From IMG/VR virus record IMGVR_UViG_3300029733_000185: DNA of 64,000 nucleotides. The stretch is one strand, 5' to 3'. The notes under the pieces are model-generated. The model worked only from the letters and a program-made list of their open reading frames with translations, was not told the DNA's origin and made no database searches. Positions 8,023 to 33,320 of the stretch are shown here, piece after piece. A program made the position numbers and the translations under genes. Origin of the DNA: a virus (lineage: Duplodnaviria; Heunggongvirae; Uroviricota; Caudoviricetes). Each line of letters opens with the position of its first letter. Position 1 is the first letter of the stretch.

Positions 8023-9831
8023 TTACTCATTTTCTTCGTATTGTCCTCTTGACGAGAATCCAGGATCAACAAACTTTGAACCTTTGCGATTCAAGTCGTC
8101 TGCTGTCATGCTACGGAATGAGTAAGAGCCAACAGCTCCTGCAGAATTGTAAGCCGTATTCATACTAGTGAGCACAACACCATTTTCTTTCGCATAAGTC
8201 GTTGCAGCCTTTGTTGCGTCCGCTGCAGTATTCCCTGTAAATGTAAATGTTCCGACGTTTGGATTATCGCCCTTTTGTAAACCACCGTGTGTTCTATTGT
8301 AGTTAACAGCCACAGCTTCTGGTGAGATTGCACCTGATGCACGATGACCGTCCACTTTCGCAATAACTGGTCTACCACTATTGAAGCCAACAACCGCATT
8401 TCCCTTTTTGAGTGTCTTTTGTACATCACTCATAACGCCGGATGCTTGAGCTGGCGTGATGCGTCCATTGTTAGACAGAGCATCCATAACCTGAGATGCA
8501 TCGATAGAGCCATCTTTGTCTGTTTCGTAGTTTGGAAGTCCGGCCAGGGAACCATCCATATTGCGGTCAAATTTATTTTTGTCGAGCATGCCAAGTGTAT
8601 TTTCTCCAAGTTTAACCCCTTGTTTAATTGGTGCATCTGCATTAATTGTGTTGTTTTTCTTGCCTGCAACCGGCGTGTCTGAAGCACCAGAAATGCCACT
8701 TAAAGGATTTGCATTTGAACCTGATGGCGTTTCGCCAGTTGAAGCTCCACCAGATGCTGATTTACCAGCACCGCCGCCTCTATTGAATGGGGCAGTAACA
8801 AGGCTATGCAGACCTTTTCCAGTAAGTAGCTTTGAGCCAGTCTCTAAACTCTTCATTACGCCAAGACTGCTCATCAGGAAACTTCTGTTTTGGATCGGAT
8901 TAACCTTAAACACGATTTGTGCCAATAGCTGATCTAACCGTTGAGCCATCTTGCTGATAGCAATAAGAGAAATCAGAGACAAGATTTTTGTACCAGCATC
9001 TGTTGACAAGTCGCCTGTAGAGCGTCCCCATGCAGAAAAGCAGTTGCTGAACGCAAGCAGACACAACTTATAACCAACAAGGTTGAATATGATGGTTAAT
9101 ACATTTGAAATCATCAAATTGAACCAGTTTTTGAAAATTTGGATGCTTTTTTCAGATACGATAGTCGCTGACGCAAGTGGTGCGCTCAGCACCAATAAGT
9201 TGATCGTGAAATACCGTTCTGCATTTTCAGCAACCAGCTTGAATAAGTTGATTGTTGCCGCTATAACGCAGATCAAAAATAGAAGCACTCCGAACAAAGC
9301 TTCAATCGACTTAAATGTGCCATTTGTAGAAATGACAAAATTAGAAAAAGAACCAAGAGTTCCATCTGTCAACTTATTTAACAAGTCAGTTCCGCTCACT
9401 TTTGATAGCGGGAGTTGAAGATTAAGCACCTTGTTAAAGAAAGATTGAGCAAATGGAAAAATATAGTCTGTGATTGCGGTTGCTAACCAGTAGTTACAAA
9501 AAATAGCAATAATAAACTTACCAACCAATGCATAAGGGTTCGGAATATCGTCATTTAATCTTCCGCTATACACGCGCAATAGGCCGAAAATTAAAAGCAA
9601 AATAGAAATAGATAAACCAGCCGTTGTAATGATAGTGTTGAGCTGATTCAGAAATGTTGCCCCGAACATAGACACAAACATATTGGTAGAAAAGTTAAAT
9701 GGTTTCATAAAAAATTCGCCCATTGTGTTTAACAGTGAGAGAACAAGCTGCAGCAGACCAGACAACAATGCCCAGATTACATCGCTAAGTATGCTTGTGA
9801 TTAGACTACTTCCAACCATTTGTGTATTCAC
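8023..9831 (-). CDS. VirB6/TrbL/TcpH-like polytopic membrane protein
   Basis: 602 aa, multiple N-terminal TM helices, Gly/Ser-rich soluble C-terminus; true start may be the ATG at 9819 (GGAGG RBS). Confidence 0.6.
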   Translation of the reverse strand: MNTQMVGSSLITSILSDVIWALLSGLLQLVLSLLNTMGEFFMKPFNFSTNMFVSMFGATFLNQLNTIITTAGLSISILLLIFGLLRVYSGRLNDDIPNPYALVGKFIIAIFCNYWLATAITDYIFPFAQSFFNKVLNLQLPLSKVSGTDLLNKLTDGTLGSFSNFVISTNGTFKSIEALFGVLLFLICVIAATINLFKLVAENAERYFTINLLVLSAPLASATIVSEKSIQIFKNWFNLMISNVLTIIFNLVGYKLCLLAFSNCFSAWGRSTGDLSTDAGTKILSLISLIAISKMAQRLDQLLAQIVFKVNPIQNRSFLMSSLGVMKSLETGSKLLTGKGLHSLVTAPFNRGGGAGKSASGGASTGETPSGSNANPLSGISGASDTPVAGKKNNTINADAPIKQGVKLGENTLGMLDKNKFDRNMDGSLAGLPNYETDKDGSIDASQVMDALSNNGRITPAQASGVMSDVQKTLKKGNAVVGFNSGRPVIAKVDGHRASGAISPEAVAVNYNRTHGGLQKGDNPNVGTFTFTGNTAADATKAATTYAKENGVVLTSMNTAYNSAGAVGSYSFRSMTADDLNRKGSKFVDPGFSSRGQYEENE

Positions 9832-9840
9832 CTCCGTTTC

Positions 9841-9876
9841 TAAAAAATAAGGGGCTTAAATGAATTAAGCCCCTTG
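9841..9876 (-). terminator. intrinsic terminator after pilin gene
   Basis: AAGGGGCTTAA..TTAAGCCCCTT stem plus U-run; directly precedes VirB6 RBS. Confidence 0.65.
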
Positions 9877-9897
9877 ATGAATTAACTCTTTAATGGT

Positions 9898-10314
9898 TTA
9901 GAATAATTGAGCAAAACTCATAATGTCTGCTGCTTTAGCCGCACCGAAATCGTATTGTGTTCCGGCGAACAAGCTGACACCATATGTCAAGATAGAGCCA
10001 AGCAGGAAAAACACGACAAAGCATCCAACAGCGCGTTTAGCCCAGCTAATGCCTTCATCTGCAGACTTGGAAGACTTGCCAATCATGATCGTCACGATTG
10101 AGATACCAAGCACCAGAACACAAAGTGGTGTAAACACTGTGTTTAGCAATGTACCAAGGCTCTTGATGACATTCAAAATTGCATCGCTTAAGCCGGTAGC
10201 TGCAAACGCTTGAACTGCCATTGCACTTGTTACAGCAAAAGCAGCCATAGCGGAGATGCAATTGCTTAGCTTTTTGCTGTTTTGGTTTTGACGCGTATTC
10301 TTTTTTGTCAACAT
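9898..10314 (-). CDS. VirB2/TrbC-like T4SS pilin candidate
   Basis: 138 aa; basic N-terminus, signal-like helix ending AVQAFAA, second hydrophobic helix; followed by intrinsic terminator. Confidence 0.5.
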   Translation of the reverse strand: MLTKKNTRQNQNSKKLSNCISAMAAFAVTSAMAVQAFAATGLSDAILNVIKSLGTLLNTVFTPLCVLVLGISIVTIMIGKSSKSADEGISWAKRAVGCFVVFFLLGSILTYGVSLFAGTQYDFGAAKAADIMSFAQLF

Positions 10315-10401
10315 AATACGTAATCCCCCTTTCGTAGTGTTTTGTAAGTATTTTGTTGATTATTATGAAGCGGATATATTCCGCATCTTTGCTTATTTAG
10401 T

Positions 10402-10818
10402 TTACCCATCTTTGAACAAGCCACTGCTGAAACCGCCAATACTCGGATCTTTGGCATTTGAATAGGTATAGGAGTGATTTGGCACAGCCTGACCGACAAA
10501 CTGAATGATAGCTCCGGATAAGTTGAAAATTACAAATACAGCAATAATTGTTGTTATAAATTTCAAAGCACCGGATACGACCTTTTGATCTCGACTTACC
10601 ATCACTTGAATAAGTGAGAATCCTGTCGCAAGCACACATAGTGAATTAAACCAAGGAGAGATTTGGCCAATAATGTTTTTTACTGCAGCCATACCTGCGG
10701 CTTGTGTTACTGACGGTGCTTTGGCAGCGTATGCCATGCTCGGGAAACAAAGGAAAATTCCAAGGAACATCAGAGAAAAGATTGTTCCTAAGAGAATATT
10801 TTTCGATTTTTGTGTCAC
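10402..10818 (-). CDS. VirB2/TrbC-like T4SS pilin candidate (paralogue)
   Basis: 138 aa, same architecture (signal helix ending SMAYAA, second TM); tandem with previous gene. Confidence 0.5.
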   Translation of the reverse strand: MTQKSKNILLGTIFSLMFLGIFLCFPSMAYAAKAPSVTQAAGMAAVKNIIGQISPWFNSLCVLATGFSLIQVMVSRDQKVVSGALKFITTIIAVFVIFNLSGAIIQFVGQAVPNHSYTYSNAKDPSIGGFSSGLFKDG

Positions 10819-10838
10819 AAATTCATCACCCCTTTCTA

Positions 10839-10884
10839 AGAAAAAAAGCGGGAAGGCACATCTGATAACTGTACCACTCCCGCC
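10839..10884 (-). terminator. intrinsic terminator between SpoVG-like and pilin genes
   Basis: GCGGGAG..CTCCCGC stem plus U7. Confidence 0.55.
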
Positions 10885-10909
10885 GTGTTGTTCGATTTCT
10901 TAATTTTTA

Positions 10910-11302
10910 TTACGCAGCCTGCGGAATCGTAGAGATGCGCTCATCTGTATCTTTTTGACAAGCAATCTTGTACGCTTGCATAATACCCCGATTCAATTCT
11001 TTTGAAGCTTCAGGGCTATTTGGAAAAGCAACGCTTACAAATACGTCTTTACCATTACGCTTGCTCAGTCTCTTTGATGGATATACAATCGTAATTCTAC
11101 CAAATCGCTGAAGAATACAAATGTCATTGATTACAATGTGTCCATAAGTCACCTTCGCAAATGCCTTCAGCTCCTTCCCATTAAACAAACGAATGTCTAC
11201 CTGATACGGAATGCACATATTACCATGTGAGTCTTTCTTGAGAAGGTCGCTTACATTGATCATCATTTCCGGTGAACTGTATTCGTTTTTGTGTTCCGGC
11301 AT
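10910..11302 (-). CDS. SpoVG-family protein
   Basis: start at MPEHK with AAGGAGGA RBS; core VDIRLFNGKELKAFAKVTYGHIVINDICILQ...IVYPSKRLSKRNGKDVFVSVAFP parallels SpoVG consensus. Confidence 0.6.
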   Translation of the reverse strand: MPEHKNEYSSPEMMINVSDLLKKDSHGNMCIPYQVDIRLFNGKELKAFAKVTYGHIVINDICILQRFGRITIVYPSKRLSKRNGKDVFVSVAFPNSPEASKELNRGIMQAYKIACQKDTDERISTIPQAA

Positions 11303-11365
11303 CGAAATCCTCCTTTCATCGTATTGGATTGTTTTAAGTGTCTCGTGTATTTTTGTTCTGTGAAC

Positions 11366-11425
11366 ACAAGACACAAAAAATAAAAAGAAGGAGAACGCAT
11401 TTCGTGCCAGTTATGGCAGCTGCAT
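11366..11425 (-). promoter_or_regulatory. structured leader (terminator-like hairpin + U-tract, then second 10-bp hairpin) upstream of SpoVG-like gene
   Basis: GGAGAAUGCAGCUGCCAUAACUGGCACGAAAUGCGUUCUCC followed by UUCUUUUUAUUUUUU, then GUGUCUUGUG..CACGAGACAC. Confidence 0.5.
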
Positions 11426-11440
11426 TCTCCTTGTTAAAAT

Positions 11441-11452
11441 AATTATAACACT
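11441..11452 (-). promoter_or_regulatory. extended -10 promoter (TGTTATAAT)
   Basis: TRTGnTATAAT motif on minus strand. Confidence 0.5.
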
Positions 11453-11482
11453 TTTGTGAATTTCGGACAAATTTTATTAGTG

Positions 11483-11516
11483 AACAGAAAAAAAGGCGAC
11501 AGATTTCTCTGTCACC
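11483..11516 (-). terminator. intrinsic terminator after vWA gene
   Basis: GGTGACAG..CTGTCGCC stem flanked by T/A runs (bidirectional). Confidence 0.6.
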
Positions 11517-11523
11517 TTTTTTG

Positions 11524-13734
11524 TTATAAAAGTTTTTTGATTTTCGCCAGCAAAATTCTCGCTATTTCTGTCGGCAGTTTTTGTAGATCTCGGCCATCTA
11601 CAAGTTCTTTGCCATAAATGGCTTGCAGATTATAAAAATCGTCGCCAATAGCGATAGGAATAATTGCAATATGTGATTTTTTACATATTTTATTCAAATA
11701 TTCCATATCGTGGACCATTTGTGTATGACCGTAACCGGTGCCATTCGGACGCCCATCTGACAATACGAATAAAAACTTTTGTGTTTCTGGCCGCTTAACT
11801 AGCTTAGAAATGCCAAAACGAAGTCCATAGCCATCATGATTACAAGCATTATGTGCTTTCATAGACACAAGTTTTGAAGCATTGATGTTGTTCTTGATGT
11901 CATCCATCTTCAGATACTCGTTAATCATAACACTTCCGTACTCACAGTGACCGTAAACTCCAAATGGAATTTTAAGCTCTCTGCAAAACGCTTCCAGACA
12001 CATTGCTGCTAGTCTTGCTGCTTTCTCACGATCTCCGTCCATACTGCCAGATTCATCAACCATGATTTCGACAGCACACAGCGGACGTTTTGTCGGTGCA
12101 GTGATATCCATAAATACTCTCTCTGAACCGGACGCATACGCATTGACATCCAACATAATGCCCTCATCTTGTTCATAGTAGATATTCCCTTTTCGACGTT
12201 CCTTGAGAACTTTAAGGACTTTTTTGGCCAACGTTTTCGCAATTGCCTTCTCTTTTGATGTGAAAATTGCATTATAAGCATTTACATCAGTCTCAAAATC
12301 TCTGCGAATACTGTGTGACAGATTTGCTACTCTGCCATCTTTGATAAATCTACCGAATTCCTGGTTTTCATATTGTCGATTTAGATCTTTCAGGTTTTGT
12401 TCGGCAAAGATCTTATTCAAAACTGATTCAGAAGATTTGTTTGCTTCGTTTTCGGCTTTTGCAAAAATATCCTGCAGTGCTTTGCTGAAAGCAGGATCAA
12501 TAGGCGCTTGTTTGCTTTTATCTGTTTCTTCATTCTGTTGGCTCTGGCCGTCTGCCTTCTGATTTTTATTTTCAGAACTTTTTTGTTGCTTGTTTTGGGA
12601 ACCAACGGCATTTTTGCCATTAGTATCATTTTCACCAGATTCATCATTTGGAGAGCCAGCAGAAGCGTTTTCAGCGCCGTTTTCTTTGTTTTGCGAGTCC
12701 GTGCTAGACTGTTCAACTTTACTGCCTTCCGAGTCATTCTGAGAGCCTTCAGAGCCACTCTGATTGTCCTTGCTTGAATTGTCAGAAGAAGATTGGCTTG
12801 ACTGAGCACTCTGTCTCTGATTGGCTTGACCAACCATTGTAGAACGCGATTGTCCTTGTCCATCCTCTTGCTCATTCATCTCACTCTGGTCATCAGAGAT
12901 TGCATTGTCATCTGCAAATTGAGACAGCATATTGAGTGCCTGTTGGATTCTATCAGCTTGTTCAAAGTACTCACTAAAATACTTCCACAAGATCTGCATA
13001 ATTTTTCCAACAACGTGAAGACGATCCTCATAATTTGGCATCGACTCCACAGCAAACAAAGGCTGCGTATCCTTTAATTCCGGATACAACTTCAGACTTT
13101 CATCCGCAAAGCAACCTCTTGCCTGGCAAAGAAGCAAATTAAGCAATGCATTAATATCTTTGCTTTGAGGCGTTTCTGCTGAAATATGTTGCCGTAGACG
13201 TTCTGTCAAAGCATCAACATAGCAAGCAAATCCAGGGTACTTTTGTACAGCAAGGTACTCAATTACCGGGTCCTCAACAATGTTCGCAATTTTAAAAAAT
13301 AGCTTATCAAATAACTCTTTCGAAATTCCGTAAGCCTTCTCTACTTCATCGGTTTGCTGAAAGCCGTCAAAATATTCACCATATGGGAATACTTTTTTCT
13401 CCTGCAACTCTGCAGCTCTGGCAAAATTCGTATGCAGTCCATGACCAAAAACCTCGTGAGTCAGCTTACCAAGCGCAAGTTTTTTTCGCTCCACAAAGTT
13501 CAGACCTTTATCCAGCACAGAGTCCAAATTGATGTAGCACTCTTTGTCGGAAATCCAGGCAATCTTTCCGTCAGGGGCAAAATCTGTACGAATCGGTACA
13601 GACTTGAAACTATAATAGTTTAAACTGGAATTGGCCAGCCCTTGTAGGACTGACCGAAAACCAGATGCCTCAACTATTTCCTTGAGAGAAGTGTTTTCTT
13701 TCACAAACTCTCGAAGTTGTTTTTTATCCATCAT
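11524..13734 (-). CDS. vWA-domain protein with N-terminal HExxH zincin-like motif and Q/S/N-rich linker
   Basis: 736 aa; HEVFGHGLH near N-terminus; about 200-aa low-complexity acidic/polar region; C-terminal MIDAS DESGSMDGD; 6 nt downstream of the AAA ATPase gene. Confidence 0.7.
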   Translation of the reverse strand: MMDKKQLREFVKENTSLKEIVEASGFRSVLQGLANSSLNYYSFKSVPIRTDFAPDGKIAWISDKECYINLDSVLDKGLNFVERKKLALGKLTHEVFGHGLHTNFARAAELQEKKVFPYGEYFDGFQQTDEVEKAYGISKELFDKLFFKIANIVEDPVIEYLAVQKYPGFACYVDALTERLRQHISAETPQSKDINALLNLLLCQARGCFADESLKLYPELKDTQPLFAVESMPNYEDRLHVVGKIMQILWKYFSEYFEQADRIQQALNMLSQFADDNAISDDQSEMNEQEDGQGQSRSTMVGQANQRQSAQSSQSSSDNSSKDNQSGSEGSQNDSEGSKVEQSSTDSQNKENGAENASAGSPNDESGENDTNGKNAVGSQNKQQKSSENKNQKADGQSQQNEETDKSKQAPIDPAFSKALQDIFAKAENEANKSSESVLNKIFAEQNLKDLNRQYENQEFGRFIKDGRVANLSHSIRRDFETDVNAYNAIFTSKEKAIAKTLAKKVLKVLKERRKGNIYYEQDEGIMLDVNAYASGSERVFMDITAPTKRPLCAVEIMVDESGSMDGDREKAARLAAMCLEAFCRELKIPFGVYGHCEYGSVMINEYLKMDDIKNNINASKLVSMKAHNACNHDGYGLRFGISKLVKRPETQKFLFVLSDGRPNGTGYGHTQMVHDMEYLNKICKKSHIAIIPIAIGDDFYNLQAIYGKELVDGRDLQKLPTEIARILLAKIKKLL

Positions 13735-13740
13735 TTCTCC

Positions 13741-15282
13741 TTAATTGAGACCCAAAATAGAGTCAAGTTTATCGCTGATAATTTCAGCATAACCATCCTC
13801 CAAAGAGGTCTTGTTTTCAATTGTCAGGGCAGCAGACTGTCGTAAAGTCCCACCATTAAACTGGTAATCATTGATACAATCAATTGCCCCACGAATATCA
13901 GCAATGCCCTGCGTAATGCTTTGATCGCGGATGATTTCCTGCAACTCGCCAATGGCGTGAATGACCTTGGCCACATCTTCCCTATCGCCCTGATATCCAG
14001 TAACAGACATCACACGGTCAATCTGTTCAGAAACTGTCGGTGCATCGATCTTCTTGACATAAGCGACACGGGACAGCAGGGACAGGTTAAAGGGATTGCA
14101 TCCTTCGTAATCCACATTCGTTGTAAAAATGAATGTGGTGTTCGGATGAATGGGCACCTGCGCACCATTCGGCAAGATCAAAGTGCGATTGGAGTCCAAT
14201 ACACAATTTAAAAAGCCAAGCGTACCGGCGTTGATAATCAGTGAGGGCTCCTGGATTTCAATTATCCAGCCGTAACGACAAGCCAATACCAGTTCCGTTA
14301 AGGAATACTGAATCTCATCGTTATCGATGCCAGTCACATCAACATCCTTTTTCCAAAGGCTTTTAACTGCGCGCTGAAAGAACTTAACAAGTGCTCCGTT
14401 AGAAGCAATTTTGTTAGGCTTACCACGCAGATCACTTTCGTTTGTCATTGCAGAACAACAAATGAAAGTATACGGGATTCCGGTCATCTTGCTGAAATAT
14501 TTACCCATTTCAGACTTACCAGTTCCGGCAGGTCCATAAAAGAAGAAAGCAGGTGCCTTCCCCATCTTTTGGATGCCATTATACAGACGAGACACAAACA
14601 GTTTATCGTTGTTTGTAGGAACATAACCTTCGACAAGCTGATTGGAAGCAATACGCTCCTTCTCAAACTTGTTGTAGGAATTTTCCTGTCTGATAGTCCA
14701 ATCTCGTTCGTTAAATGTGGGTACTGAATTGACAGTTTGCTTCGCATCCATCGGAAACACCTTTGCGGAGATGCCAAGACCGCTCACAGCATGCGGATAC
14801 GGAACTCCATTGGCACACAAAGTCACAAGAGGCGTTAAGTTGTTCAAAAACGCCGGCAAAATCGGGCCGCTTAATGAGAACGGACGCCAAGGAACTATCC
14901 TGGAATTGCCATCTTCAAGATTAACAATCCTTTGCTCAATTTTTTCCTTGTCGCGTGCAGATGAAGCTTCCGTCATACAAGACGCAATGACAATAAACAT
15001 TGCATCAACTGCTGACTCGCCACTAACAGTCCGTCTATCAAAATAGACTTCCCCATGATACCAACATCCGGCAACCACCCGAGACTTATAGGTGTACTGA
15101 AGTTCGACGGCCACAGCGCCTTGGTCAGATTCAGCAATAATAACACTAAGTTTTTTATCGCTGATCAAATTGAAAAAGTAATTAATCAATTTGGCAATAT
15201 TGTTTGCCCCATCGATGTTATTAGGAACCTCATTTGCTGCAGTCAATGCCGTTCGATTCCATTTCGTTCTGTTGCTTGCCAT
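13741..15282 (-). CDS. AAA_5 (MoxR/CbbQ/McrB-like) ATPase with unknown N-terminal domain
   Basis: start MASNRTKW with AAGGAGG RBS; Walker A GPAGTGKSE; C-terminal AAA lid-like region. Confidence 0.7.
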   Translation of the reverse strand: MASNRTKWNRTALTAANEVPNNIDGANNIAKLINYFFNLISDKKLSVIIAESDQGAVAVELQYTYKSRVVAGCWYHGEVYFDRRTVSGESAVDAMFIVIASCMTEASSARDKEKIEQRIVNLEDGNSRIVPWRPFSLSGPILPAFLNNLTPLVTLCANGVPYPHAVSGLGISAKVFPMDAKQTVNSVPTFNERDWTIRQENSYNKFEKERIASNQLVEGYVPTNNDKLFVSRLYNGIQKMGKAPAFFFYGPAGTGKSEMGKYFSKMTGIPYTFICCSAMTNESDLRGKPNKIASNGALVKFFQRAVKSLWKKDVDVTGIDNDEIQYSLTELVLACRYGWIIEIQEPSLIINAGTLGFLNCVLDSNRTLILPNGAQVPIHPNTTFIFTTNVDYEGCNPFNLSLLSRVAYVKKIDAPTVSEQIDRVMSVTGYQGDREDVAKVIHAIGELQEIIRDQSITQGIADIRGAIDCINDYQFNGGTLRQSAALTIENKTSLEDGYAEIISDKLDSILGLN

Positions 15283-15305
15283 AATAAATTTCCTCCTTAA
15301 TAAAA

Positions 15306-15345
15306 AAAGAGCCATCAGCAAAGAACTGACGACTCTTTTTATTTT
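15306..15345 (-). promoter_or_regulatory. terminator-like hairpin + U7 immediately upstream of AAA-ATPase RBS
   Basis: imperfect stem AGAGUCGUCAG..CUGAUGGCUCU then UUUUUUU then AAGGAGG. Confidence 0.5.
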
Positions 15346-15407
15346 TTAATGTTTATTTTTTTATAACTATAACTTCTGTGCAAATGCGCAGAATATAATT
15401 AACACCA

Positions 15408-15421
15408 TAATTATAACACAA
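15408..15421 (-). promoter_or_regulatory. extended -10 promoter (TGTGTTATAATT)
   Basis: motif on minus strand between SSB terminator and ATPase leader hairpin. Confidence 0.5.
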
Positions 15422-15430
15422 AACGAAATC

Positions 15431-15462
15431 AAAACAAAAAAAGAGACGCATAAGCGTCTCTT
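15431..15462 (-). terminator. intrinsic terminator after ssb
   Basis: AGAGACGC..GCGTCTCT perfect stem with flanking T/A runs. Confidence 0.7.
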
Positions 15463-15473
15463 TTTGTTACAGT

Positions 15474-15884
15474 TTAGAAGGGCAGATCGTCGTCCTCGTC
15501 CACCTCTTCACCAACATCTTCGGATGCAGGCTCAGGCTTAGCAGCGGGCTTGGAAGTACCACCGCCGTTCTGACCACCAAACGCAGTCAAACCGTTGACC
15601 AGCACACGGAAGTTCCGGCGCTGATGGCCCTCTTTGTCCGTAAATTCACTGAAATCAGGAGTACCGGTTACAGTGACTGACATGCCCTTTTTCAACCAAC
15701 CCAGAGCACCGCTCTGCATACAGTCGAAGAAGTTTGCCTTTTCCTTGTTATAGGTCTGACAGGCGACCGTATAAGTCACAAACTCCTTGCCGGACTTACT
15801 GGTGCGAACTTCTGCGTCTGCCACCAGTCTGCCTGTGATCATAATACTTGCAAGATCTCTGCCTCGATTTTCTTTATTTGCCAT
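15474..15884 (-). CDS. ssb: single-stranded DNA-binding protein
   Basis: OB-fold-like core, Gly-rich linker, acidic tail ending DDDLPF; start MANKENRG with AAAGGAGA RBS. Confidence 0.85.
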   Translation of the reverse strand: MANKENRGRDLASIMITGRLVADAEVRTSKSGKEFVTYTVACQTYNKEKANFFDCMQSGALGWLKKGMSVTVTGTPDFSEFTDKEGHQRRNFRVLVNGLTAFGGQNGGGTSKPAAKPEPASEDVGEEVDEDDDLPF

Positions 15885-15914
15885 AATTATTCTCCTTTCT
15901 GGCAATTCAATATA

Positions 15915-16364
15915 TTAAGAAACACCTAAATAATAATCCCTGTCATATTTCGGTGCAAACTCAAATTTTTTAAACTTTTCATTCAGTTTTTCAAATGAGT
16001 TAAATCGCACTTTGTTGTTTGGGAAATTCAAGGTGTATTCTTCTGTCAGGGGTAGATACAAGAACATGTATTTGTTTTTAATACCTTCGTTGTCCTTGTA
16101 TTTGATGCGTTGAACAATCTGATATGGATCTTCATGCTCAACGACTTTTGCCTTCAGCTGCTTGTCACGATATGTCAGCACGATCTTTGCCAACACAACA
16201 TCGTACTGTGATGGTGCATCTTTCAGCATAATGTCATCCTTATAGGACAAGACAACATACCGATCAAAGCCATCAGATAAACACTGACTAACATAAGAAT
16301 CAAGCAGAGGCCAATATTGCTCTCTCAATTCTTCGATTGGTTTGGTGAATTTTCTTAATGCCAT
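15915..16364 (-). CDS. hypothetical protein
   Basis: start MALRKF with AGGAGATAAA RBS; no motif recognised. Confidence 0.5.
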   Translation of the reverse strand: MALRKFTKPIEELREQYWPLLDSYVSQCLSDGFDRYVVLSYKDDIMLKDAPSQYDVVLAKIVLTYRDKQLKAKVVEHEDPYQIVQRIKYKDNEGIKNKYMFLYLPLTEEYTLNFPNNKVRFNSFEKLNEKFKKFEFAPKYDRDYYLGVS

Positions 16365-16485
16365 TTTATCTCCTACAATAATATGAAAAGACGGACACCA
16401 CAAGGATGACCGTCTTAAAAGCAATTTATTTTTTGTTATAACTTATAACGTCATAATTATAACACATTTTTGTAAACGAGACAAA

Positions 16486-16911
16486 TTATGCAACATTTAA
16501 GTGTTTATTGGGCAGGCTTTCCAGCCAATCAACAAAGTCCCTATCGTACACATACCGAATGTTGTCAAGCATAAAAGCACCGGGTATAACATCCATAATT
16601 TTCTCGGCCTTAGGTCTCCCTACGCTGAAAATGTCCATAATATCCTCAACCGTGTACATTGCAGGGCGTATTTTAATGACTTTTGTGTCAACGCCCTCCC
16701 CCAAGTGCGAATAGTACATTGCTTCACTTACCAGATAGCCATTTGTAAAGTAATCACTCGCCAGAATATAGCGACGGGAATTGATGTAAAAATAATCATA
16801 TTTTTTCATTTTACAATAGGCTTGAGAATATGTGCAGCCTTCGATTCTTTGAATATCAACAGCACTGATTACATACATTTGGAATTTGCCATCATTTCTT
16901 TTAATACGCAT
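16486..16911 (-). CDS. hypothetical protein, possible HTH/excisionase-like DNA-binding protein
   Basis: 141 aa; segment YTVEDIMDIFSVGRPKAEKIMDVIP resembles a short HTH. Confidence 0.45.
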   Translation of the reverse strand: MRIKRNDGKFQMYVISAVDIQRIEGCTYSQAYCKMKKYDYFYINSRRYILASDYFTNGYLVSEAMYYSHLGEGVDTKVIKIRPAMYTVEDIMDIFSVGRPKAEKIMDVIPGAFMLDNIRYVYDRDFVDWLESLPNKHLNVA

Positions 16912-29641: not shown

Positions 29642-29717
29642 TGGTGGAAGCAGAGGGACTCGAACCCTCGACCTTCTGCTTGCAAAGCAGATGCTCTCCC
29701 AGTTGAGCTATGCCCCC
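29642..29717 (-). tRNA. tRNA-Ala(TGC)
   Basis: cloverleaf on minus strand; G3:U70 pair; anticodon loop CTTTGCAAG; CCA encoded. Confidence 0.8.
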
Positions 29718-29737
29718 AAATGAGAATCTTACCGAAA

Positions 29738-29813
29738 TGGTGGGAATAGTAGGTCTCGAACCTACGACCTCCTGCTTGTAAGGCAGGCGCTCTCCCAGCT
29801 GAGCTATATTCCC
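29738..29813 (-). tRNA. tRNA-Val(TAC)
   Basis: anticodon loop CCTTACAAG; T-loop TTCGAGA. Confidence 0.75.
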
Positions 29814-29816
29814 AAA

Positions 29817-29892
29817 TGGTGCCGGATCTCGGACTTGAACCGAACACCTCTGCGTTACGAAGGCAGCGCTCTACCAGATGAGCTAATCCAGC
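29817..29892 (-). tRNA. tRNA-Thr(CGT)
   Basis: anticodon loop TTCGTAA; C31-C39 mismatch. Confidence 0.6.
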
Positions 29893-29900
29893 GAAATGAG

Positions 29901-29976
29901 TGGTGCCACAGGCTGGAGTCGAACCAGCGACGCTCGGTTCTTCAGACCGACGCTCTACCTGCTGAGCTACCGTGGC
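29901..29976 (-). tRNA. tRNA-Phe(GAA)
   Basis: anticodon loop CTGAAGA. Confidence 0.8.
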
Positions 29977-29979
29977 ATA

Positions 29980-30055
29980 TGGTGCGAAATGCAGGACTTG
30001 AACCTACAACCTACGGCTTATCGAGCCGTTGCTCTGCCAATTGAGCTAATTTCGC
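29980..30055 (-). tRNA. tRNA-Ile(GAT)
   Basis: anticodon loop CTCGATAA. Confidence 0.75.
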
Positions 30056-30056
30056 A

Positions 30057-30132
30057 TGGTGATCGCAGTGGGATTCGAACCCACGATACAGGTTAGAAAG
30101 ACCTGCGGCTTAGACCGCTTGCCGATGCGACC
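30057..30132 (-). tRNA. tRNA-Glu(TTC)
   Basis: Glu-type D-loop AAGCGGTCTAAG; anticodon loop CTTTCTA with unusual U37. Confidence 0.55.
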
Positions 30133-30137
30133 GAAAA

Positions 30138-30214
30138 TGGTGAACGCACTGAGATTCGAACTCAGACTCTGCGGTTAGAGAGACCGCCATGTTAGCCTAT
30201 TACACTATGCGTCC
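30138..30214 (-). tRNA. tRNA-Glu(CTC)-like, isotype uncertain
   Basis: D-stem GTGT/ACAT; anticodon loop CTCTCTA (CTC with U37; alternative register would give TCT). Confidence 0.45.
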
Positions 30215-30217
30215 AAA

Positions 30218-30293
30218 TGGAGCAGGTGATCAGATTCGAACTGATGAATAATGGGTTTGCAGCCCACACCGTTAGCCTCTTCGGCACACCCGC
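30218..30293 (-). tRNA. tRNA-Cys(GCA)
   Basis: anticodon loop CTGCAAA; discriminator U73. Confidence 0.75.
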
Positions 30294-30300
30294 AAAAATA

Positions 30301-30376
30301 TGGCTCCCACGGCCAGACTTGAACTGACAACTTCCTGATTAACAGTCAGGCGCTCTACCGATTGAACTACGTGGGA
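30301..30376 (-). tRNA. tRNA-Asn(GTT)
   Basis: anticodon loop CTGTTAA; discriminator G73. Confidence 0.75.
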
Positions 30377-30380
30377 ATGT

Positions 30381-30457
30381 TGGCAGGGGCGGAGCGACTT
30401 GAACACTCGTGCCATGGTTTTGGAGACCAGGCGATTTCCTGTTATCTTTACGCCCCT
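30381..30457 (-). tRNA. tRNA-Trp(CCA), atypical D-arm
   Basis: acceptor AGGGGCG/CGCCCCT, anticodon loop CTCCAAA as in Bacillus tRNA-Trp; D-arm has an extra nucleotide. Confidence 0.55.
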
Positions 30458-30464
30458 GTATGTT

Positions 30465-30539
30465 TGGGTGGAATCCCGGGAGTCGAACCCAGATTACTTG
30501 TACCACAAACAAGCGTGCTACCGTTACACCAGAAACCAC
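30465..30539 (-). tRNA. tRNA-His(GTG)-like, possibly degenerate
   Basis: G-1:C73 feature and anticodon loop TTGTGGT, but two U-U mismatches in acceptor stem. Confidence 0.45.
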
Positions 30540-30617
30540 AAATGAGAAAGCGTATGTTTTGATTTTGCAACTATAATATAGAGCTGGGCTAAACATACAA
30601 AACAACTTCTACCCTTA

Positions 30618-30712
30618 TGGTGGTCGGAGATGAGGGAATCGAACCCACTCGAATGCCTAAGCACACCAGTTTTACAGACTGGGGTATCTACCTTAATACT
30701 TTAACCTCCGAT
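30618..30712 (-). tRNA. tRNA-Tyr(GTA)-like, long variable arm, irregular acceptor
   Basis: anticodon loop CTGTAAA, discriminator A73, long variable arm; A1-C72 mismatch. Confidence 0.45.
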
Positions 30713-30771
30713 TTATTAAATTGTCGCAGAATACCACGCCTGAACAACGGTTCAGACGTGGATAAATACAA

Positions 30772-32115
30772 CTATGCCGCGTTGTAAATTGTTTTTGCGT
30801 ATTTAAATGGTTGTAATTGCTTAACGCTTACAATTTTTTTGAATTCGTTATTTTTGATAGACACGTAAGTACCGCGGTTTTGTGTGCCAACCACTTCAAA
30901 TGTTCTGTTACGCCAAAGCACCGTATCATGTGGTTGGTACGGATATCGTTGTCTTCTGATAGATACTCTACCTTTGGAAATCTTTTGCTGTCTGTATGGA
31001 TGCAAGTTCTCACCATTCAGGTTTTTGTTACGAGTTGTTCTACCGCTAAATAATTCTTTACCGGTAGCCTTTTGACCCGTCCTTGCATCCACATATTTGG
31101 CATCGTGAAACTTTGCAAGACAACGATTATTTTTACGTTTCTCTTGCCAGAACACCGGTTCACACCGGTGCTTTGGCTGTTTGTCGCCGACACAATACGC
31201 ATCGTTGTAATGCGTTTTGTCTAACTGCAAATCTATCCGTTTGGATTTTGTCAAATAGCCAAAAGTCTCTACAACCGGAATCGTGTATTCATCACGCAGC
31301 TGTGTGATCAGCATTCGTCTGACCGTAGACATAAATGTCTCCGGTTTGAAAGACTTTTGCTTTGGTTGCAGACCATACAAAATCTGCCCCTTTTGATGAT
31401 TACGTGACGTATGACACTTGCTACACAGCGTTAATGTATTTGCAGGCGTATTTGAATGATCGTTTTTCCAATATCCGATATGATGCATGCGAAGCACTGC
31501 ACCATCTCGGAAAGCATTTTTACCACAGATCTGGCAAGTGTATCCGTCTCTGTAGAAAGTGTGCTCACGCAAATTTCGGAAGTCGTACATCTCGCCCTTT
31601 TGATATCCCTCACCGGAGATATCCGGGGTCTTTAATGCTTGAATATCGAAATTTGCGGTCTCTACATAGATCTTTGTAATCGGCAGAAGGCGCATCAACT
31701 TTCGAATGACCTTTTTGTGGCTGTCCAGCTTATGCTGAATGCTGGGTGCCAACCATTGGTCCGGTCTTCTGCGATTATCAAATCTTGGCTTGCGATGTCT
31801 CAAACGATTGCGACGCTTGCGACGATACGCTCGCCGGTCGTCTAATCGTTTGGACTGGTTTTCTAAAAGTTTTAATTCACCGGAAAACAACTCTTTGTTA
31901 TCAGTACAAGCAGAAATGCCAATATGCTGATAACCAGCATCGATTTTCAGATTAATGTCTTGTGTATTGTTTTCCGTCTCATAAAGCCATTGGATTGTAA
32001 ACGGATTGCCACTTACGACTTGAGCTTTATTGCTCTTCAACAGTTTGCGTACATAGCCACATCTTTCTGTTGGCATCAGTGGCTGGCCGTTTACATCTAA
32101 GACATACACCATCAT
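30772..32115 (-). CDS. iscB: IscB RNA-guided nuclease (PLMP, split RuvC, bridge helix, HNH, TI domains)
   Basis: 447 aa; N-terminus MVYVLDVNGQPLMPTERCGYVRKLLK (PLMP domain); RuvC-I LKIDAGYQHIGIS; Arg-rich bridge helix RRAYRRKRRNRLRHRK; HNH CQICG..HHI..N..CSKCH; RuvC-III HYNDAYCVG. Confidence 0.9.
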   Translation of the reverse strand: MMVYVLDVNGQPLMPTERCGYVRKLLKSNKAQVVSGNPFTIQWLYETENNTQDINLKIDAGYQHIGISACTDNKELFSGELKLLENQSKRLDDRRAYRRKRRNRLRHRKPRFDNRRRPDQWLAPSIQHKLDSHKKVIRKLMRLLPITKIYVETANFDIQALKTPDISGEGYQKGEMYDFRNLREHTFYRDGYTCQICGKNAFRDGAVLRMHHIGYWKNDHSNTPANTLTLCSKCHTSRNHQKGQILYGLQPKQKSFKPETFMSTVRRMLITQLRDEYTIPVVETFGYLTKSKRIDLQLDKTHYNDAYCVGDKQPKHRCEPVFWQEKRKNNRCLAKFHDAKYVDARTGQKATGKELFSGRTTRNKNLNGENLHPYRQQKISKGRVSIRRQRYPYQPHDTVLWRNRTFEVVGTQNRGTYVSIKNNEFKKIVSVKQLQPFKYAKTIYNAA

Positions 32116-32474
32116 AAGATATGGCTCCTTTCAATAAATTTGGTCTGGAATGACCAGCGCACAGACGGAGCCAAAGGCCCGGTCTGTGGTAAACCCACAT
32201 CGTCAATGTTATGAATTGTTTGTTGTGTACTGCACGTCTCCGACCCCATCAGAGATTTTTAACAACACACCGTAGTGCAAGGGGCTTGTGGAGCACCCCT
32301 TGGTACCTATTTGGCAGCCGAAGCTGCCATTAAAACATAACGTAGCACTCGAAGTGCTTAGACTAATCAACTATGGGCTTGTGATTTCTTACAAGCCCCA
32401 ACTGACTGTTTCACGGTTAGTCTGGGGTAATTGACAGTCAGGACCGCTACCGTTACGGAATATCGACGCATATA
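32116..32474 (-). ncRNA. omega-RNA of IscB (scaffold plus 5' guide region)
   Basis: about 360 nt non-coding region immediately upstream of iscB on the same strand; several stable stem-loops (GGGCTTGTGATTTCTTACAAGCCC, AAGGGGCTTGTGGAGCACCCCTT, CTGACTGT..ACAGTCAG). Confidence 0.65.
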
Positions 32475-32564
32475 CTGGTGCTGATAGTGGGAGTCGAACC
32501 CACACGGTGTTGCCACCATCGGGGCTTAAACCCGATGCGTGCTGCCAATTTCGCCATATCAGCA
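32475..32564 (-). tRNA. tRNA-Leu(TAA)
   Basis: 90 nt incl. CCA; anticodon loop TTTAAGC, long variable arm. Confidence 0.75.
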
Positions 32565-32629
32565 CATATAAATAGCCACACCTGATAGCCATACACACCA
32601 TTCAGTGTGGCTTTTTGCATTTATCGTTA

Positions 32630-33124: not shown

Positions 33125-33148
33125 TGGACATACCCTCCTTGTAATTTT

Positions 33149-33236: not shown

Positions 33237-33240
33237 AAAA

Positions 33241-33316: not shown

Positions 33317-33320
33317 ATAA

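What the first reader, a model, noticed from the sequence alone, without database searches (positions are those of the whole stretch)
11524..15282. AAA_5 (MoxR-like) ATPase plus vWA protein with HExxH motif, embedded in the conjugation module
The two genes are adjacent with a 6-nt gap. The 513-aa ATPase (Walker A GPAGTGKSE) has a roughly 250-aa N-terminal domain of unknown type. The 736-aa partner has an N-terminal HEVFGHGLH zincin-like motif, a roughly 200-aa Q/S/N/E-rich disordered linker and a C-terminal vWA MIDAS motif (DESGSMDGD). Comparative genomics has proposed MoxR-vWA pairs that carry effector domains as NTP-dependent conflict systems. This pair lies between the pilin/SpoVG-like genes and ssb, on an element also packed with nucleases. 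It could be a defence or anti-defence system, or a novel T4SS accessory chaperone. The SpoVG-like gene directly downstream may belong to the same unit.
Basis: partly seen in the sequence, partly recalled or inferred. Interest (0 to 1): 0.65.

Follow-up and report, generated by a model that had tools for sequence, protein, structure and literature searches.

The report
CobS/CobT-like ATPase–adaptor pair on conjugative element
This is a two-gene ATP-driven motor plus adaptor module, already seen unexplained in T4-like phages and in conjugative plasmids such as SXT and pCAR1; here it is a conserved backbone part of a large gut conjugative element, so it is a new member of a known but functionally unsolved kind.

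Summary
Both genes are real, on the minus strand: ATPase 13741-15282 (513 aa) and vWA protein 11524-13734 (736 aa), 6 nt apart. Terminator-like hairpins on both sides suggest a two-gene operon.

The partner is CobT/NorD-type (profile to solved CobT, E 4e-25). It has a zincin-like N-domain, a 133-residue disordered linker, a helical segment and a vWA domain with an intact MIDAS.

The motif here is HEVFGH, which is HExxxH, not HExxH. 135 of 162 relatives carry canonical HExxH. H, E, H and a second motif N-I-x-E-D-x-x-I-E are invariant or nearly so. The same architecture and motifs occur in pCAR1 ORF103 and in a cyanophage "CobT".

SSB-ATPase-vWA-SpoVG-pilins-VirB6-like-M23-VirB4 is colinear in five divergent elements. 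Distant pairs stay beside SSB, topoisomerase III, YqaJ or RecD-like genes.

It has no VMAP, no PADLOC match and no CobN in the window.

Best reading: an ATP-driven remodeller, probably also a protease, of mobile elements; its client is unknown. It is a new member of a known, uncharacterised kind. Interest is moderate.

The parts
13741..15282 (-). Gene for a 513-aa MoxR/CobS-class AAA+ ATPase. ATG at 15282; the TTG at 15321 lies inside a leader hairpin and is unlikely to be used.
14638..15282 (-). ATPase N-terminal region (residues 1-215): a folded alpha/beta domain (about 1-156) plus a disordered stretch. No family assigned; fast-evolving.
   Evidence: AF2 model. No Pfam, NCBIfam or PHROG hit. 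8-30% identity to homologues whose AAA+ module is 60-76% identical. Against L014: 21 nonsynonymous codon changes here, none in the AAA+ module.
13744..14637 (-). AAA+ module (residues 216-513). Walker A GPAGTGKS is at 14512-14535. A non-canonical Walker B, IIEIQE, is at 14248-14265. It also holds sensor 1 (TTN), a putative Arg finger R405 and sensor 2 R464.
   Evidence: Invariant columns G250, G253, G255, K256, E342, Q344, E345, N389, R405 and R464 in 33 sequences. Coordinates. Strand 340-344 in the AF2 model.
11524..13734 (-). Gene for the 736-aa CobT/NorD-type adaptor (735 aa if it starts at ATG 13731).
   Evidence: ORF. RBS spacing. PHROG 1576 at 1.3e-18 and CobT PHROG 17276 at 1.1e-8. Family profile against solved CobT 4e-25 and NorD 5e-14. 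Full-length Foldseek matches to phage CobT-like and VWFA proteins.
12901..13734 (-). Zincin-like N-domain (residues 1-278). HEVFGH is at 13441-13458 and NIVEDPVIE at 13258-13284.
   Evidence: AF2 pLDDT about 90. Topology is helices, a 3-stranded sheet, then a helix carrying the motif. H93, E94, H98, N151 and D155 are invariant and E154 is at least 90% conserved in 54 sequences. N 149/150, E 143/150, D 149/150 and E 122/150 in representatives. The domain profile finds 538 representative clusters.
12502..12900 (-). Disordered S/Q/N/E/G/D-rich linker (residues 279-411).
   Evidence: pLDDT below 50. Composition and net acidity: 24 D+E against 12 K+R. 11-48% identity among all but one near-identical homologue, with variable length.
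12088..12501 (-). Helical pre-vWA segment (residues 412-549), the candidate 'shaft' that would enter the ATPase pore.
   Evidence: AF2 helices 414-516. The profile aligns this region and the vWA domain to CobT residues 223-613. The shaft role is inferred from the CobST structures (bioRxiv 10.64898/2026.07.21.739949).
11527..12087 (-). vWA domain (residues 550-736) with a MIDAS motif. DESGS is at 12043-12057; D660 is also conserved.
15302..15465 (-). Intergenic leader. It holds a terminator-like hairpin after ssb (15465-15438), an extended -10 TGTTATAAT (15418-15410), and a second hairpin with a T-run (15335-15302) just before the RBS.
   Evidence: first hairpin. Sequence read. Comparable hairpins between ssb and the ATPase gene occur in L002 and L003. 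These are consensus-level signals only.
11488..11522 (-). Bidirectional terminator-like hairpin immediately after the vWA stop codon.
   Evidence: Sequence read. One search lists the + strand version. Sub-threshold Rfam matches to a terminator stem on both strands at 11489-11522. Equivalent hairpins with T-runs follow the vWA gene in L001, L002 and L003.
15474..15905 (-). ssb, the most recurrent neighbour of the pair. It is context, not part of the operon.
   Evidence: Pfam SSB 3.2e-12. An SSB gene lies within 10 kb of the pair in the window, L002, L003, L004, L006, L012, L017 and L019.
10910..11374 (-). SpoVG-like gene. Its likely true start is ATG 11302, behind RBS AAAGGAGG. A promoter-like site, TTGTCC-17-TATAAT, lies at 11470-11442. 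It is a neighbour and probably a separate transcription unit.
   Evidence: Pfam SpoVG 35.7 bits. Promoter-like site. Sequence read. Present downstream of the pair in L001, L002, L003, L012 and L014, but not in L004, L006, L007 or L010.

Best explanation
The two genes appear to form a bicistronic operon for a CobS/CobT-type machine. The ATPase is a MoxR-class AAA+ motor. The adaptor has four parts in order: a zincin-like N-domain with its metal and catalytic motif intact, a disordered acidic linker, a helical 'shaft', and a vWA domain with a MIDAS site.

What is shown:
- the folds and the conserved motifs;
- the fixed gene order;
- membership of a family shared by tailed phages ('viral cobST'), MOBH-type conjugative plasmids and ICEs, and large gut conjugative elements.

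What is inferred from the solved CobS-CobT-CobN and NorQ-NorD complexes:
- the ATPase forms a hexameric ring;
- the adaptor's N-domain docks on the ATPase lid;
- the shaft enters the ring pore on nucleotide binding;
- a client protein is held between the MIDAS face and the N-domain, and ATP hydrolysis remodels it.

The H-E-H and N-x-x-E-D-x-x-I-E residues are invariant here but lost in the true chelatase CobT. The N-domain therefore most likely also cleaves the client, which would make the pair a split AAA+ metalloprotease.

The client is unknown. The recurrent neighbours are SSB, YqaJ/RecT-type recombination genes, topoisomerase III, RecD-like helicase and primase. They point to a cytoplasmic role in DNA processing or in establishing the element, not to cobalt insertion or envelope assembly.
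For: ATPase fold and class.

Adaptor:
- The family profile hits solved CobT at 4e-25 over the linker, middle segment and vWA domain, and NorD at 5e-14.
- Full-length structural matches to more than 25 phage CobT-like proteins. These include the split N-terminal ORF of HHTV-2 on its own.

Catalytic-type residues:
- They are invariant in 54 sequences at 17-42% identity and in 150 representatives.
- The same motifs and architecture occur in pCAR1 ORF103 (HECSH, NILEDIRIE) and in the 741-aa protein beside CobS in cyanophage MED4-213 (HEVGH, NVTEDIRIE).
- The solved CobT N-domain has no HExxH (sequence printed).

Mechanistic template: CobT_N is an M48C-like domain that binds the CobS lid, the shaft enters the ring, and CobN is clamped between CobT_N and the vWA domain.

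Operon structure: a 6-nt gap with an RBS, and flanking hairpins conserved in L001-L003.

Synteny and neighbours. pCAR1 has ssb, recT and exo nearby. In MED4-213 the pair lies between gp46/47 and the clamp loader.

Both proteins lack hydrophobic segments: maximum 19-residue hydropathy 1.35 and 1.16.
Against: - No experiment exists for any member of the mobile-element family, so protease activity and the client are inference.
- This clade has HExxxH spacing. That needs a distorted helix turn to bind zinc. DPP III does this, but that comparison rests on memory only.
- Walker B has Gln where Asp is usual, so ATPase competence is not assured.
- In the close family the pair sits directly upstream of the pilin and T4SS genes, which would also fit a transfer-apparatus role.
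Confidence: 0.6

Rival explanations
1. Establishment or anti-defence effector. After entry into a recipient, the machine captures a host protein through the MIDAS site or the variable ATPase N-domain and unfolds or cleaves it. Candidate targets are a defence factor, host SSB, a RecA-pathway protein or a nucleoid protein. This would allow the incoming DNA to survive.
For: - The family is confined to mobile elements: phages, plasmids, ICEs and megaplasmid-like contigs.
- It sits next to ssb, a typical early or leading-region gene (leading-region literature listed).
- The ATPase N-domain evolves much faster than the motor: 8-30% against 60-76% identity, and 21 against 0 nonsynonymous changes between near-identical elements. 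This is what a host-facing interface would show.
Against: - oriT and the relaxase were not located in the window, so a leading-region position is not shown.
- No match to known anti-defence or defence models.
- The nonsynonymous/synonymous codon ratio in the N-domain (21/29) shows relaxed constraint, not demonstrated positive selection.
- The adaptor, including its MIDAS and zincin sites, is conserved rather than diversifying.
Confidence: 0.17
2. Dedicated assembly chaperone of the conjugative apparatus. The pair would mature, load or process pilins or T4SS subunits, in the way a MoxR-vWA pair is needed for tail development in Acidianus two-tailed virus.
For: - Strict colinearity ATPase-vWA-SpoVG-pilinA-pilinB-VirB6-like-M23-orf127-VirB4 in five divergent elements.
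- Iyer et al. proposed a virion-assembly chaperone/protease role for the phage version and cite the ATV precedent (PMC7824862).
- The vWA profile also hits a vWA-bearing minor pilin at 5e-10.
Against: - In more distant families the pair is not next to pilin or T4SS genes. It lies beside SSB, topoisomerase III, YqaJ and helicase genes.
- In pCAR1 and cyanophage MED4-213 it lies among replication and recombination genes, not morphogenesis genes.
- Neither protein has a hydrophobic segment that could be a signal peptide or membrane span.
- A terminator-like hairpin separates the pair from the SpoVG and pilin genes.
Confidence: 0.12
3. A defence system of the vWA-MoxR conflict type, carried as cargo. 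It would be NTP-dependent and abortive, protecting the host or the element against phages.
For: That paper notes that a metallopeptidase is occasionally found in the effector position fused to the vWA component.
Against: - No VMAP-like third component. The flanking genes are SSB and SpoVG or other unrelated ORFs.
- No PADLOC match for the vWA protein, and only short P-loop matches for the ATPase.
- It holds a fixed position in the backbone, and its AAA+ module is as conserved as VirB4 (60-76% against 57-65% identity). This is unlike variable defence cargo.
- The same module is found in many lytic T4-like cyanophages, where cobST is reported as part of the core genome (PMC8651126).
Confidence: 0.06
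4. Genuine cobaltochelatase subunits CobS and CobT. They would hijack a host CobN to raise cobalamin supply, as proposed for viral cobST.
For: PHROG annotations and sequence similarity to CobS and CobT. The hypothesis is stated in PMC8651126.
Against: - No NCBIfam CobS or CobT match at E up to 0.01, and no Pfam CobT N-domain hit.
- No CobN hit among the 30 larger window ORFs scanned with Pfam.
- The conserved HExxH-type site is absent from the real CobT N-domain and has no role in chelation.
- The elements come from gut samples, where the aerobic CobN route is not expected. This last point rests on general knowledge and was not tested here.
Confidence: 0.03

Closest known systems
Phage 'cobS/cobT' pair, i.e. 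a MoxR ATPase plus a metallopeptidase-vWA cochaperone. It occurs in T4-like cyanophages and group 2.2 jumbo phages, and in haloarchaeal, Gordonia and Thermus tailed viruses (PMC7824862; PMC8651126).
   Same: - Adjacent AAA_5 ATPase and an adaptor of about 600-850 aa with the same four parts: zincin-like N-domain, acidic linker, middle segment and vWA/MIDAS domain.
- Both motifs are present in the cyanophage MED4-213 protein (HEVGH, NVTEDIRIE, DWSGS).
- Full-length Foldseek matches and PHROG hits.
- Function is experimentally unknown in both.
   Different: - The host element here is a T4SS-bearing conjugative element, not a virion producer; no phage structural hits were found in the window.
- Gene order is ATPase then adaptor. 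In MED4-213 it is adaptor then ATPase.
- The ATPase carries an extra N-terminal region of about 200 residues; phage CobS is about 320-370 aa.
- The motif has a one-residue insertion (HExxGH).
- Sequence identity is too low for BLAST to connect them.
MoxR-like ATPase and vWA protein of MOBH-type conjugative elements: pCAR1 ORF101 and ORF103, conserved in R478, Rts1, SXT and R391 (PMC2642839); CobS and vWA of pAQU1 (PMC4036041).
   Same: - A backbone gene pair of conjugative elements, near ssb, recT and exo.
- pCAR1 ORF103 has HECSH, NILEDIRIE, YPG, an acidic Q/E/G-rich linker and DKSGS. It scores against the N-domain profile at 17.5 bits.
- No assigned function.
   Different: - Proteobacterial MPF_F elements, against a Gram-positive-style element with an M23 hydrolase and sortase or S26 neighbours.
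- pCAR1 has a DUF3150 gene between the two genes.
- Its ATPase is short (322 aa), without the long N-domain.
- The relationship is detectable only through the motifs and a weak profile score.
Aerobic cobaltochelatase CobS-CobT(-CobN), solved structures 9uj*/9uk* (bioRxiv 10.64898/2026.07.21.739949).
   Same: - Closest solved relatives of the adaptor by sequence, and among the closest for the ATPase.
- The same domain order: an M48C-like N-domain, a disordered linker of about 90 residues, a shaft, and a vWA domain with MIDAS.
- A likely shared way of assembling with the AAA+ ring.
   Different: - The real CobT N-domain lacks HExxH, whereas here it is invariant.
- No CobN is encoded in the window.
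- No Pfam CobT N-domain hit or NCBIfam CobS/CobT hit.
- A biological role in cobalt insertion is very unlikely.
NorQ-NorD and CbbQ-CbbO (MoxR-vWA metalloenzyme activases), and eukaryotic Midasin/Rea1.
   Same: - A shared logic: a ring motor, and a MIDAS adaptor that grips a client.
   Different: - Those act on defined housekeeping clients (cNOR, Rubisco, pre-60S particles) and sit next to their client genes.
- None of these client genes was seen in the mobile-element contexts examined.
- Whether their adaptors carry a zincin motif was not checked here.
vWA-MoxR-VMAP ternary conflict systems (Kaur, Burroughs, Iyer, Aravind 2020, PMC7159879).
   Same: A MoxR ATPase coupled to a vWA protein. That paper reports a metallopeptidase as a rare effector fused to the vWA component.
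   Different: - No VMAP component.
- No variable effector repertoire.
- A conserved backbone position on mobile elements, not a place in chromosomal defence contexts.

Membership tests
Mobile-element CobS/CobT-like module (MoxR ATPase + zincin-vWA adaptor) | Adjacent genes for an AAA_5/MoxR-class ATPase and a vWA protein | tested here: met
   The gap is 6 nt, on the same strand. The same pairing is seen in all 11 other neighbourhoods examined.
Mobile-element CobS/CobT-like module (MoxR ATPase + zincin-vWA adaptor) | ATPase with a MoxR/CbbQ/NorQ/CobS-type AAA+ fold | tested here: met
   [not shown]
Mobile-element CobS/CobT-like module (MoxR ATPase + zincin-vWA adaptor) | C-terminal vWA domain with an intact MIDAS (DxSxS ... 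D) | tested here: met
   [not shown]
Mobile-element CobS/CobT-like module (MoxR ATPase + zincin-vWA adaptor) | N-terminal domain with HExxH plus a downstream N-x-x-E-D-x-x-I-E helix | tested here: met
   Both motifs are present and invariant. In this clade the first motif has one extra residue, HExxGH: 26 of 162 sequences, against 135 with HExxH. The zincin fold itself was not confirmed by a direct structural match.
Mobile-element CobS/CobT-like module (MoxR ATPase + zincin-vWA adaptor) | Whole-protein structural similarity to phage CobT-like proteins | tested here: met
   Foldseek against BFVD: 27 hits at E 1e-7 or better. Nearly all have 720-930 aligned columns, to targets of about 530-860 aa named CobT, cobalamin biosynthesis or VWFA.
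Bona fide aerobic cobaltochelatase CobST | Match to the curated CobS/CobT family models and to the CobT N-domain model | tested here: not met
   The only NCBIfam hit is a weak sub-threshold GvpN match for the ATPase, and none for the adaptor. No Pfam CobT N-domain hit at E up to 10.
Bona fide aerobic cobaltochelatase CobST | A CobN partner is available | tested here: inconclusive
   No CobN-type Pfam hit in any of the 30 larger window ORFs scanned. The host genome is unknown.
Bona fide aerobic cobaltochelatase CobST | N-domain is a non-catalytic M48C-like docking domain without HExxH | tested here: not met
   Solved CobT residues 15-225 contain no HExxH. The window protein and its family keep H-E-H invariant.
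vWA-MoxR-VMAP ternary conflict systems | A third conserved component (VMAP) encoded with the pair | tested here: not met
   The flanking genes are SSB and SpoVG-like in the close family, and unrelated ORFs elsewhere. Caveat: no VMAP profile was available, so absence is judged from neighbours and Pfam only.
vWA-MoxR-VMAP ternary conflict systems | Variable effector domains at the vWA N-terminus across related systems | tested here: not met
   The same N-domain is found in all 162 family sequences analysed and in 538 representative clusters.
Catalogued anti-phage defence systems (PADLOC) | Significant full-length match to a defence protein model | tested here: not met
   The adaptor and the SpoVG-like protein have no hits. 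The ATPase matches SspC, DolB and IetA only over about 35-70 residues around the P-loop.
   No such hit at E up to 10 for four N-domains and three full-length relatives.
NorQ/NorD or CbbQ/CbbO housekeeping activases | Genomic linkage to the client enzyme genes (nor, cbb) | tested here: not met
   None occurs in any neighbourhood. All contexts hold mobile-element DNA-processing or transfer genes.

The most novel reading that the evidence does not exclude
The CobS/CobT-like pair shared by T4-like phages, MOBH conjugative elements and these gut megaplasmid-like elements is a split AAA+ metalloprotease. Mobile elements use it to destroy or remodel a specific host (recipient) protein during entry and establishment. 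The hypervariable ATPase N-domain would be the specificity determinant, locked in an arms race with the host. That would make it a widespread takeover or anti-defence module that has been annotated as cobalamin biosynthesis.
Probability: 0.15. Interest if true: 0.75.

Novelty: new member of a known kind. Interest (0 to 1): 0.38.

Why it matters
Pairs of this family are very common on mobile elements. A tblastn with the pCAR1 ATPase alone found 868 phage records. They are reported as conserved in SXT/R391, R478 (IncH), Rts1 (IncT) and pCAR1 (IncP-7), and a CobS-vWA pair is listed in pAQU1. Yet they are usually annotated as cobalamin or porphyrin biosynthesis, or as generic AAA and VWA proteins, and no function has been shown.

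This locus adds three useful points:
1. The zincin-type residues lost in the true chelatase are invariant in the mobile-element family. That argues for a proteolytic or metal-dependent activity and against chelation.
2. Across very different elements the constant companions are SSB, recombination and topoisomerase genes. That narrows where to look for the client.
3. The ATPase N-domain evolves much faster than the motor. That marks a candidate specificity interface.

If a tractable homologue (in SXT, IncC or pCAR1) gave a phenotype, the result would carry over to many phages and resistance plasmids.

Tried and rejected
- Megablast of 10900-15950 against the plasmid and phage collections found nothing.
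- tblastn with either protein reached only the vWA or AAA+ parts of a few records. One was an E. faecium plasmid protein that fuses the AAA and vWA parts and sits in a metabolic context. It was not informative.
- PADLOC returned only short P-loop matches, so membership of a known defence system was rejected.
- Pfam at E up to 10, PHROGs and PDB sequence searches on the N-domain alone gave nothing meaningful.
- hhalign of the N-domain profile against the real CobT N-domain placed NIVEDPVIE opposite DAVEQARVE but was not significant.
- An Rfam scan of 9800-16600, which would have detected a cobalamin riboswitch, found only sub-threshold terminator-like matches.
- PHROG scans of further window ORFs found nucleases but no capsid, portal or terminase, although IMG/VR lists the same element as a viral contig.
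- The Hodor megaplasmid preprint was read as a possible identity for the element. It has no occurrence of tRNA, vWA, von Willebrand, AAA, SpoVG or cobaltochelatase. Its GC content (45-47%) differs from the window (about 40%), so no identity is claimed.
- The TTG start at 15321 was rejected because it lies inside a leader hairpin and the ATG at 15282 has a strong RBS.

Full report
**Observation.** The window holds two adjacent minus-strand ORFs: 13741-15282 (513 aa from the ATG) and 11524-13734 (736 aa).
- The ATG at 15282 follows a strong RBS (AAGGAGG). The upstream TTG at 15321 lies in the loop of a leader hairpin, so the 513-aa reading is right.
- The ATPase stop and the first ATG of the second gene are 6 nt apart. 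RBS spacing favours the second ATG at 13731.
- Walker A GPAGTGKSE (residue 250), HEVFGHGLH (93) and DESGSMDGD (560) are present as described.
- Three details need correcting. The motif is H-E-V-F-G-H, which is HExxxH and not HExxH. The disordered linker is about 133 residues (279-411) and is followed by a structured helical segment. Pfam alone sees the vWA domain only weakly (CobT_C, 22 bits).

**The ATPase.**
- Pfam AAA_5 matches residues 246-405, and PHROG 249, annotated 'porphyrin biosynthesis' (CobS), matches at 8.8e-13.
- A 33-sequence family profile hits Midasin (4e-44 summed over its AAA modules), CbbQ and CobS in the PDB.
- Walker A, sensor 1, a putative arginine finger and sensor 2 are invariant.
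- Walker B is unusual. It reads I-I-E-I-Q-E, with Gln344 at the end of the strand where Asp normally sits. E342, Q344 and E345 are invariant.
- The first ~156 residues fold as an alpha/beta domain with no detectable family.
- That N-terminal region evolves much faster than the motor. Identity is 8-30% where the AAA+ module is 60-76% identical. Between the window and a near-identical copy there are 21 nonsynonymous codon changes in 200 codons, against none in 298.

**The adaptor.**
- The AlphaFold model gives four regions: a confident N-domain (1-278, pLDDT about 90), a disordered linker (279-411), helices (414-516) and a vWA domain (550-736).
- The N-domain runs helices, a three-stranded sheet, then a long helix that carries the motif.
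- A 54-sequence profile hits solved CobT at E 4e-25 across the linker, middle segment and vWA domain, and NorD at 5e-14.
- Against predicted viral structures, about 27 phage proteins named CobT, 'cobalamin biosynthesis' or VWFA align over essentially full length. The separately encoded N-terminal half of the split cobT of HHTV-2 also matches on its own.

**The motif.**
- In 15 homologues at 20-93% identity, H93, E94, H98, N151, E154, D155 and E159 are invariant.
- The N-domain profile finds 538 representative clusters among 1.84 billion proteins. Nearly all are 600-900 aa.
- Of 162 family sequences, 135 have canonical HExxH. 26, the window's clade, have HExxxH through a one-residue insertion.
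- In 150 representatives the second motif is almost fixed: N 149, E 143, D 149 and E 122 of 150.
- In a 54-sequence alignment with 21% mean column identity, the only invariant columns are the start Met, H93, E94, H98, N151 and D155, plus six in the vWA domain: the MIDAS residues D560, S562, S564 and D660, with M565 and G661.
- The HExxGH spacing recalls the zinc motif of family M49 peptidases. That is a recollection, not a test made here.

**Relation to known modules.**
- pCAR1 ORF103, annotated NorD, has the same architecture. It carries HECSH, NILEDIRIE, YPG, an acidic low-complexity linker and DKSGS, and it scores against the N-domain profile.
- pCAR1 ORF101 and ORF103 are reported as conserved in R478, Rts1, SXT and R391 (PMC2642839). 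pAQU1 lists a CobS and a vWA protein (PMC4036041).
- tblastn with the pCAR1 ATPase finds 868 phage records, mostly cyanophage CobS.
- In cyanophage MED4-213 the 741-aa protein beside CobS has HEVGH, NVTEDIRIE and DWSGS.
- Iyer et al. described this pair in group 2.2 jumbo phages as a MoxR ATPase with a metallopeptidase-vWA cochaperone (PMC7824862).
- The recent CobSTN structures show that true CobT has the same domain order. An M48C-like N-domain binds the CobS lid. A disordered linker of about 90 residues follows. A shaft enters the CobS ring. CobN is clamped between the N-domain and the vWA/MIDAS domain.
- The solved CobT N-domain has no HExxH but keeps DAVEQARVE where the mobile-element family has N-I-x-E-D-x-R-I-E. 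hhalign pairs these two segments, without significance.

**Context.**
- All listed window ORFs of at least 120 aa that were assigned a function lie on the minus strand.
- Around the pair are VirB4, a 1231-aa M23 protein, a 602-aa putative membrane protein taken here as VirB6-like, two pilin-like genes, SpoVG-like, SSB, Toprim/DUF3991, DUF1848, a RecD-like helicase and topoisomerase III.
- The order SSB-ATPase-adaptor-SpoVG-pilinA-pilinB-VirB6-like-M23-orf127-VirB4 is colinear in L001, L002, L003, L012 and L014. Protein identities are about 26-66% in the first four, which are divergent. L014 is a near-identical copy at 94-100%.
- L014 is an IMG/VR contig of 147.8 kb and is essentially the same element. 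L012 is binned in a Gastranaerophilaceae MAG.
- More distant pairs are L004, L006, L007, L017, L018, L019 and the R. albus plasmid pRUMAL01. They keep the ATPase-then-adaptor order and lie beside SSB, topoisomerase III, YqaJ exonuclease, RecD-like helicase, primase-like genes, sortase or the coupling protein.
- pCAR1 has ssb, recT and exo nearby. In MED4-213 the pair lies between gp46/47 and the clamp loader.
- The constant association is therefore with DNA-processing and recombination genes of mobile elements. Adjacency to the T4SS holds only in the close family.

**Transcription signals (consensus level only).**
- A 12-bp hairpin with a T-run follows ssb. An extended -10 and a second hairpin with a T-run lie in the leader.
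- A bidirectional hairpin with a T-run follows the adaptor stop. A promoter-like site precedes the SpoVG-like gene, whose likely start is ATG 11302.
- Equivalent hairpins flank the pair in L001-L003.
- Rfam finds no riboswitch.
- The pair therefore looks like its own bicistronic unit, and the SpoVG-like gene like a separate one.

**Interpretation.**
- The molecular identity is secure. It is a CobS/CobT-type pair of a MoxR-class motor and a vWA adaptor, of the mobile-element subtype that keeps an intact zincin-type site.
- The working model is taken from the CobST(N) and NorQD structures: a hexameric ring, the N-domain docked on the lid, the shaft in the pore, and a client held between the MIDAS face and the N-domain.
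- Cleavage of the client is inferred. The site is invariant here but lost in the chelatase, and that is the only evidence for it.
- Chelation is very unlikely. There is no CobN in the window, no curated CobS/CobT match, and no role in chelation for a conserved catalytic-type site.
- Membership of the vWA-MoxR-VMAP conflict systems fails, because there is no VMAP and the architecture is fixed. PADLOC gives nothing.
- Three questions stay open. The client may be an element protein or a host protein. The role may be replication and recombination, establishment and anti-defence, or T4SS assembly. The fast-evolving ATPase N-domain keeps a host-interface reading alive.

**Verdict.** The general interpretation, a mobile-element-linked MoxR-vWA pair with a conserved peptidase-like motif, holds. 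The specific link to the published conflict systems does not. The pair belongs to a family already noted in phages and conjugative plasmids, so this is a new member of a known, functionally unsolved kind and of moderate interest.

Noticed in passing
window 29642-35538 (-): An array of 27 tRNA genes in two blocks (29642-30710 and 32476-35538), with anticodons for 19 of the 20 amino acids (none for Trp). An RRXRR+HNH ORF (30772-32115) splits the blocks. The array lies inside the same one-directional gene array as the T4SS and DNA-processing genes. This is unusual for a conjugative element.
   Followed up: partly
window 47562-57713 (-): A 3383-aa ORF with no Pfam match at E 1e-3 or better.
   Followed up: no
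window 14638-15282 (-); L014 8453-9991: The ATPase N-terminal ~200 residues evolve far faster than the AAA+ module. Identity is 8-30% against 60-76% across homologues. Against the near-identical IMG/VR copy there are 29 synonymous and 21 nonsynonymous codon changes here, against 20 and 0 in the AAA+ module. This may be a specificity interface or a recombination patch.
   Followed up: partly
window 14248-14265 (-): Non-canonical Walker B, I-I-E-I-Q-E, with Gln at the usual Asp position. E342, Q344 and E345 are invariant in 33 family members.
   Followed up: partly
L014 (IMG/VR UViG_3300029365_000474, 147,778 bp): Essentially the same element as the window: protein identities of 94-100% over 22 kb. 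It is catalogued as a viral contig, yet the window carries VirB4 and T4SS-type genes and gave no capsid, portal or terminase hit among the ORFs scanned. This resembles how the 'Hodor' gut megaplasmids were first found in a huge-phage collection (PMC12934698). Any relationship to Hodors was not established.
   Followed up: partly
L012 (JBJEGN010000049.1, 44 kb): A syntenic relative of the whole RecD-to-VirB4 block is binned in a 'Candidatus Gastranaerophilaceae' MAG. This hints at a non-Firmicutes host, but plasmid binning is unreliable.
   Followed up: no
window 15302-15335 (-): A 10-bp hairpin with a 7-T run lies inside the 5' leader. It sits between a promoter-like extended -10 (15418-15410) and the RBS of the ATPase gene, and could be an attenuator. 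L002 and L003 show a promoter followed by a hairpin and T-run ahead of the SpoVG-like gene.
   Followed up: partly
window 37206-37937, 38431-39351, 41887-42531, 44703-45623 (-): The element encodes its own signal peptidase S26, an SPFH/Band-7 protein, a prepilin peptidase (A24) and YidC. S26 and sortase genes also recur near distant ATPase-adaptor pairs.
   Followed up: no
P0099; L009 10417-12645 (E. faecium p114-2): Single-polypeptide versions exist. P0099 continues from the AAA+ module into a DESGSM vWA segment. A 742-aa E. faecium plasmid 'AAA family ATPase' fuses the AAA and vWA parts, has no HExxH and does not match the zincin-domain profile, and sits in a metabolic gene context.
   Followed up: partly
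window 9898-10314 and 10402-10818 (-): Two tandem 138-aa genes for small pilin-like proteins with a hydrophobic central segment. One has a weak TrbC/VirB2 match (E 0.008), and its L001 homologue has a faint T4SS_pilin hit. Both are conserved in all close relatives.
   Followed up: partly
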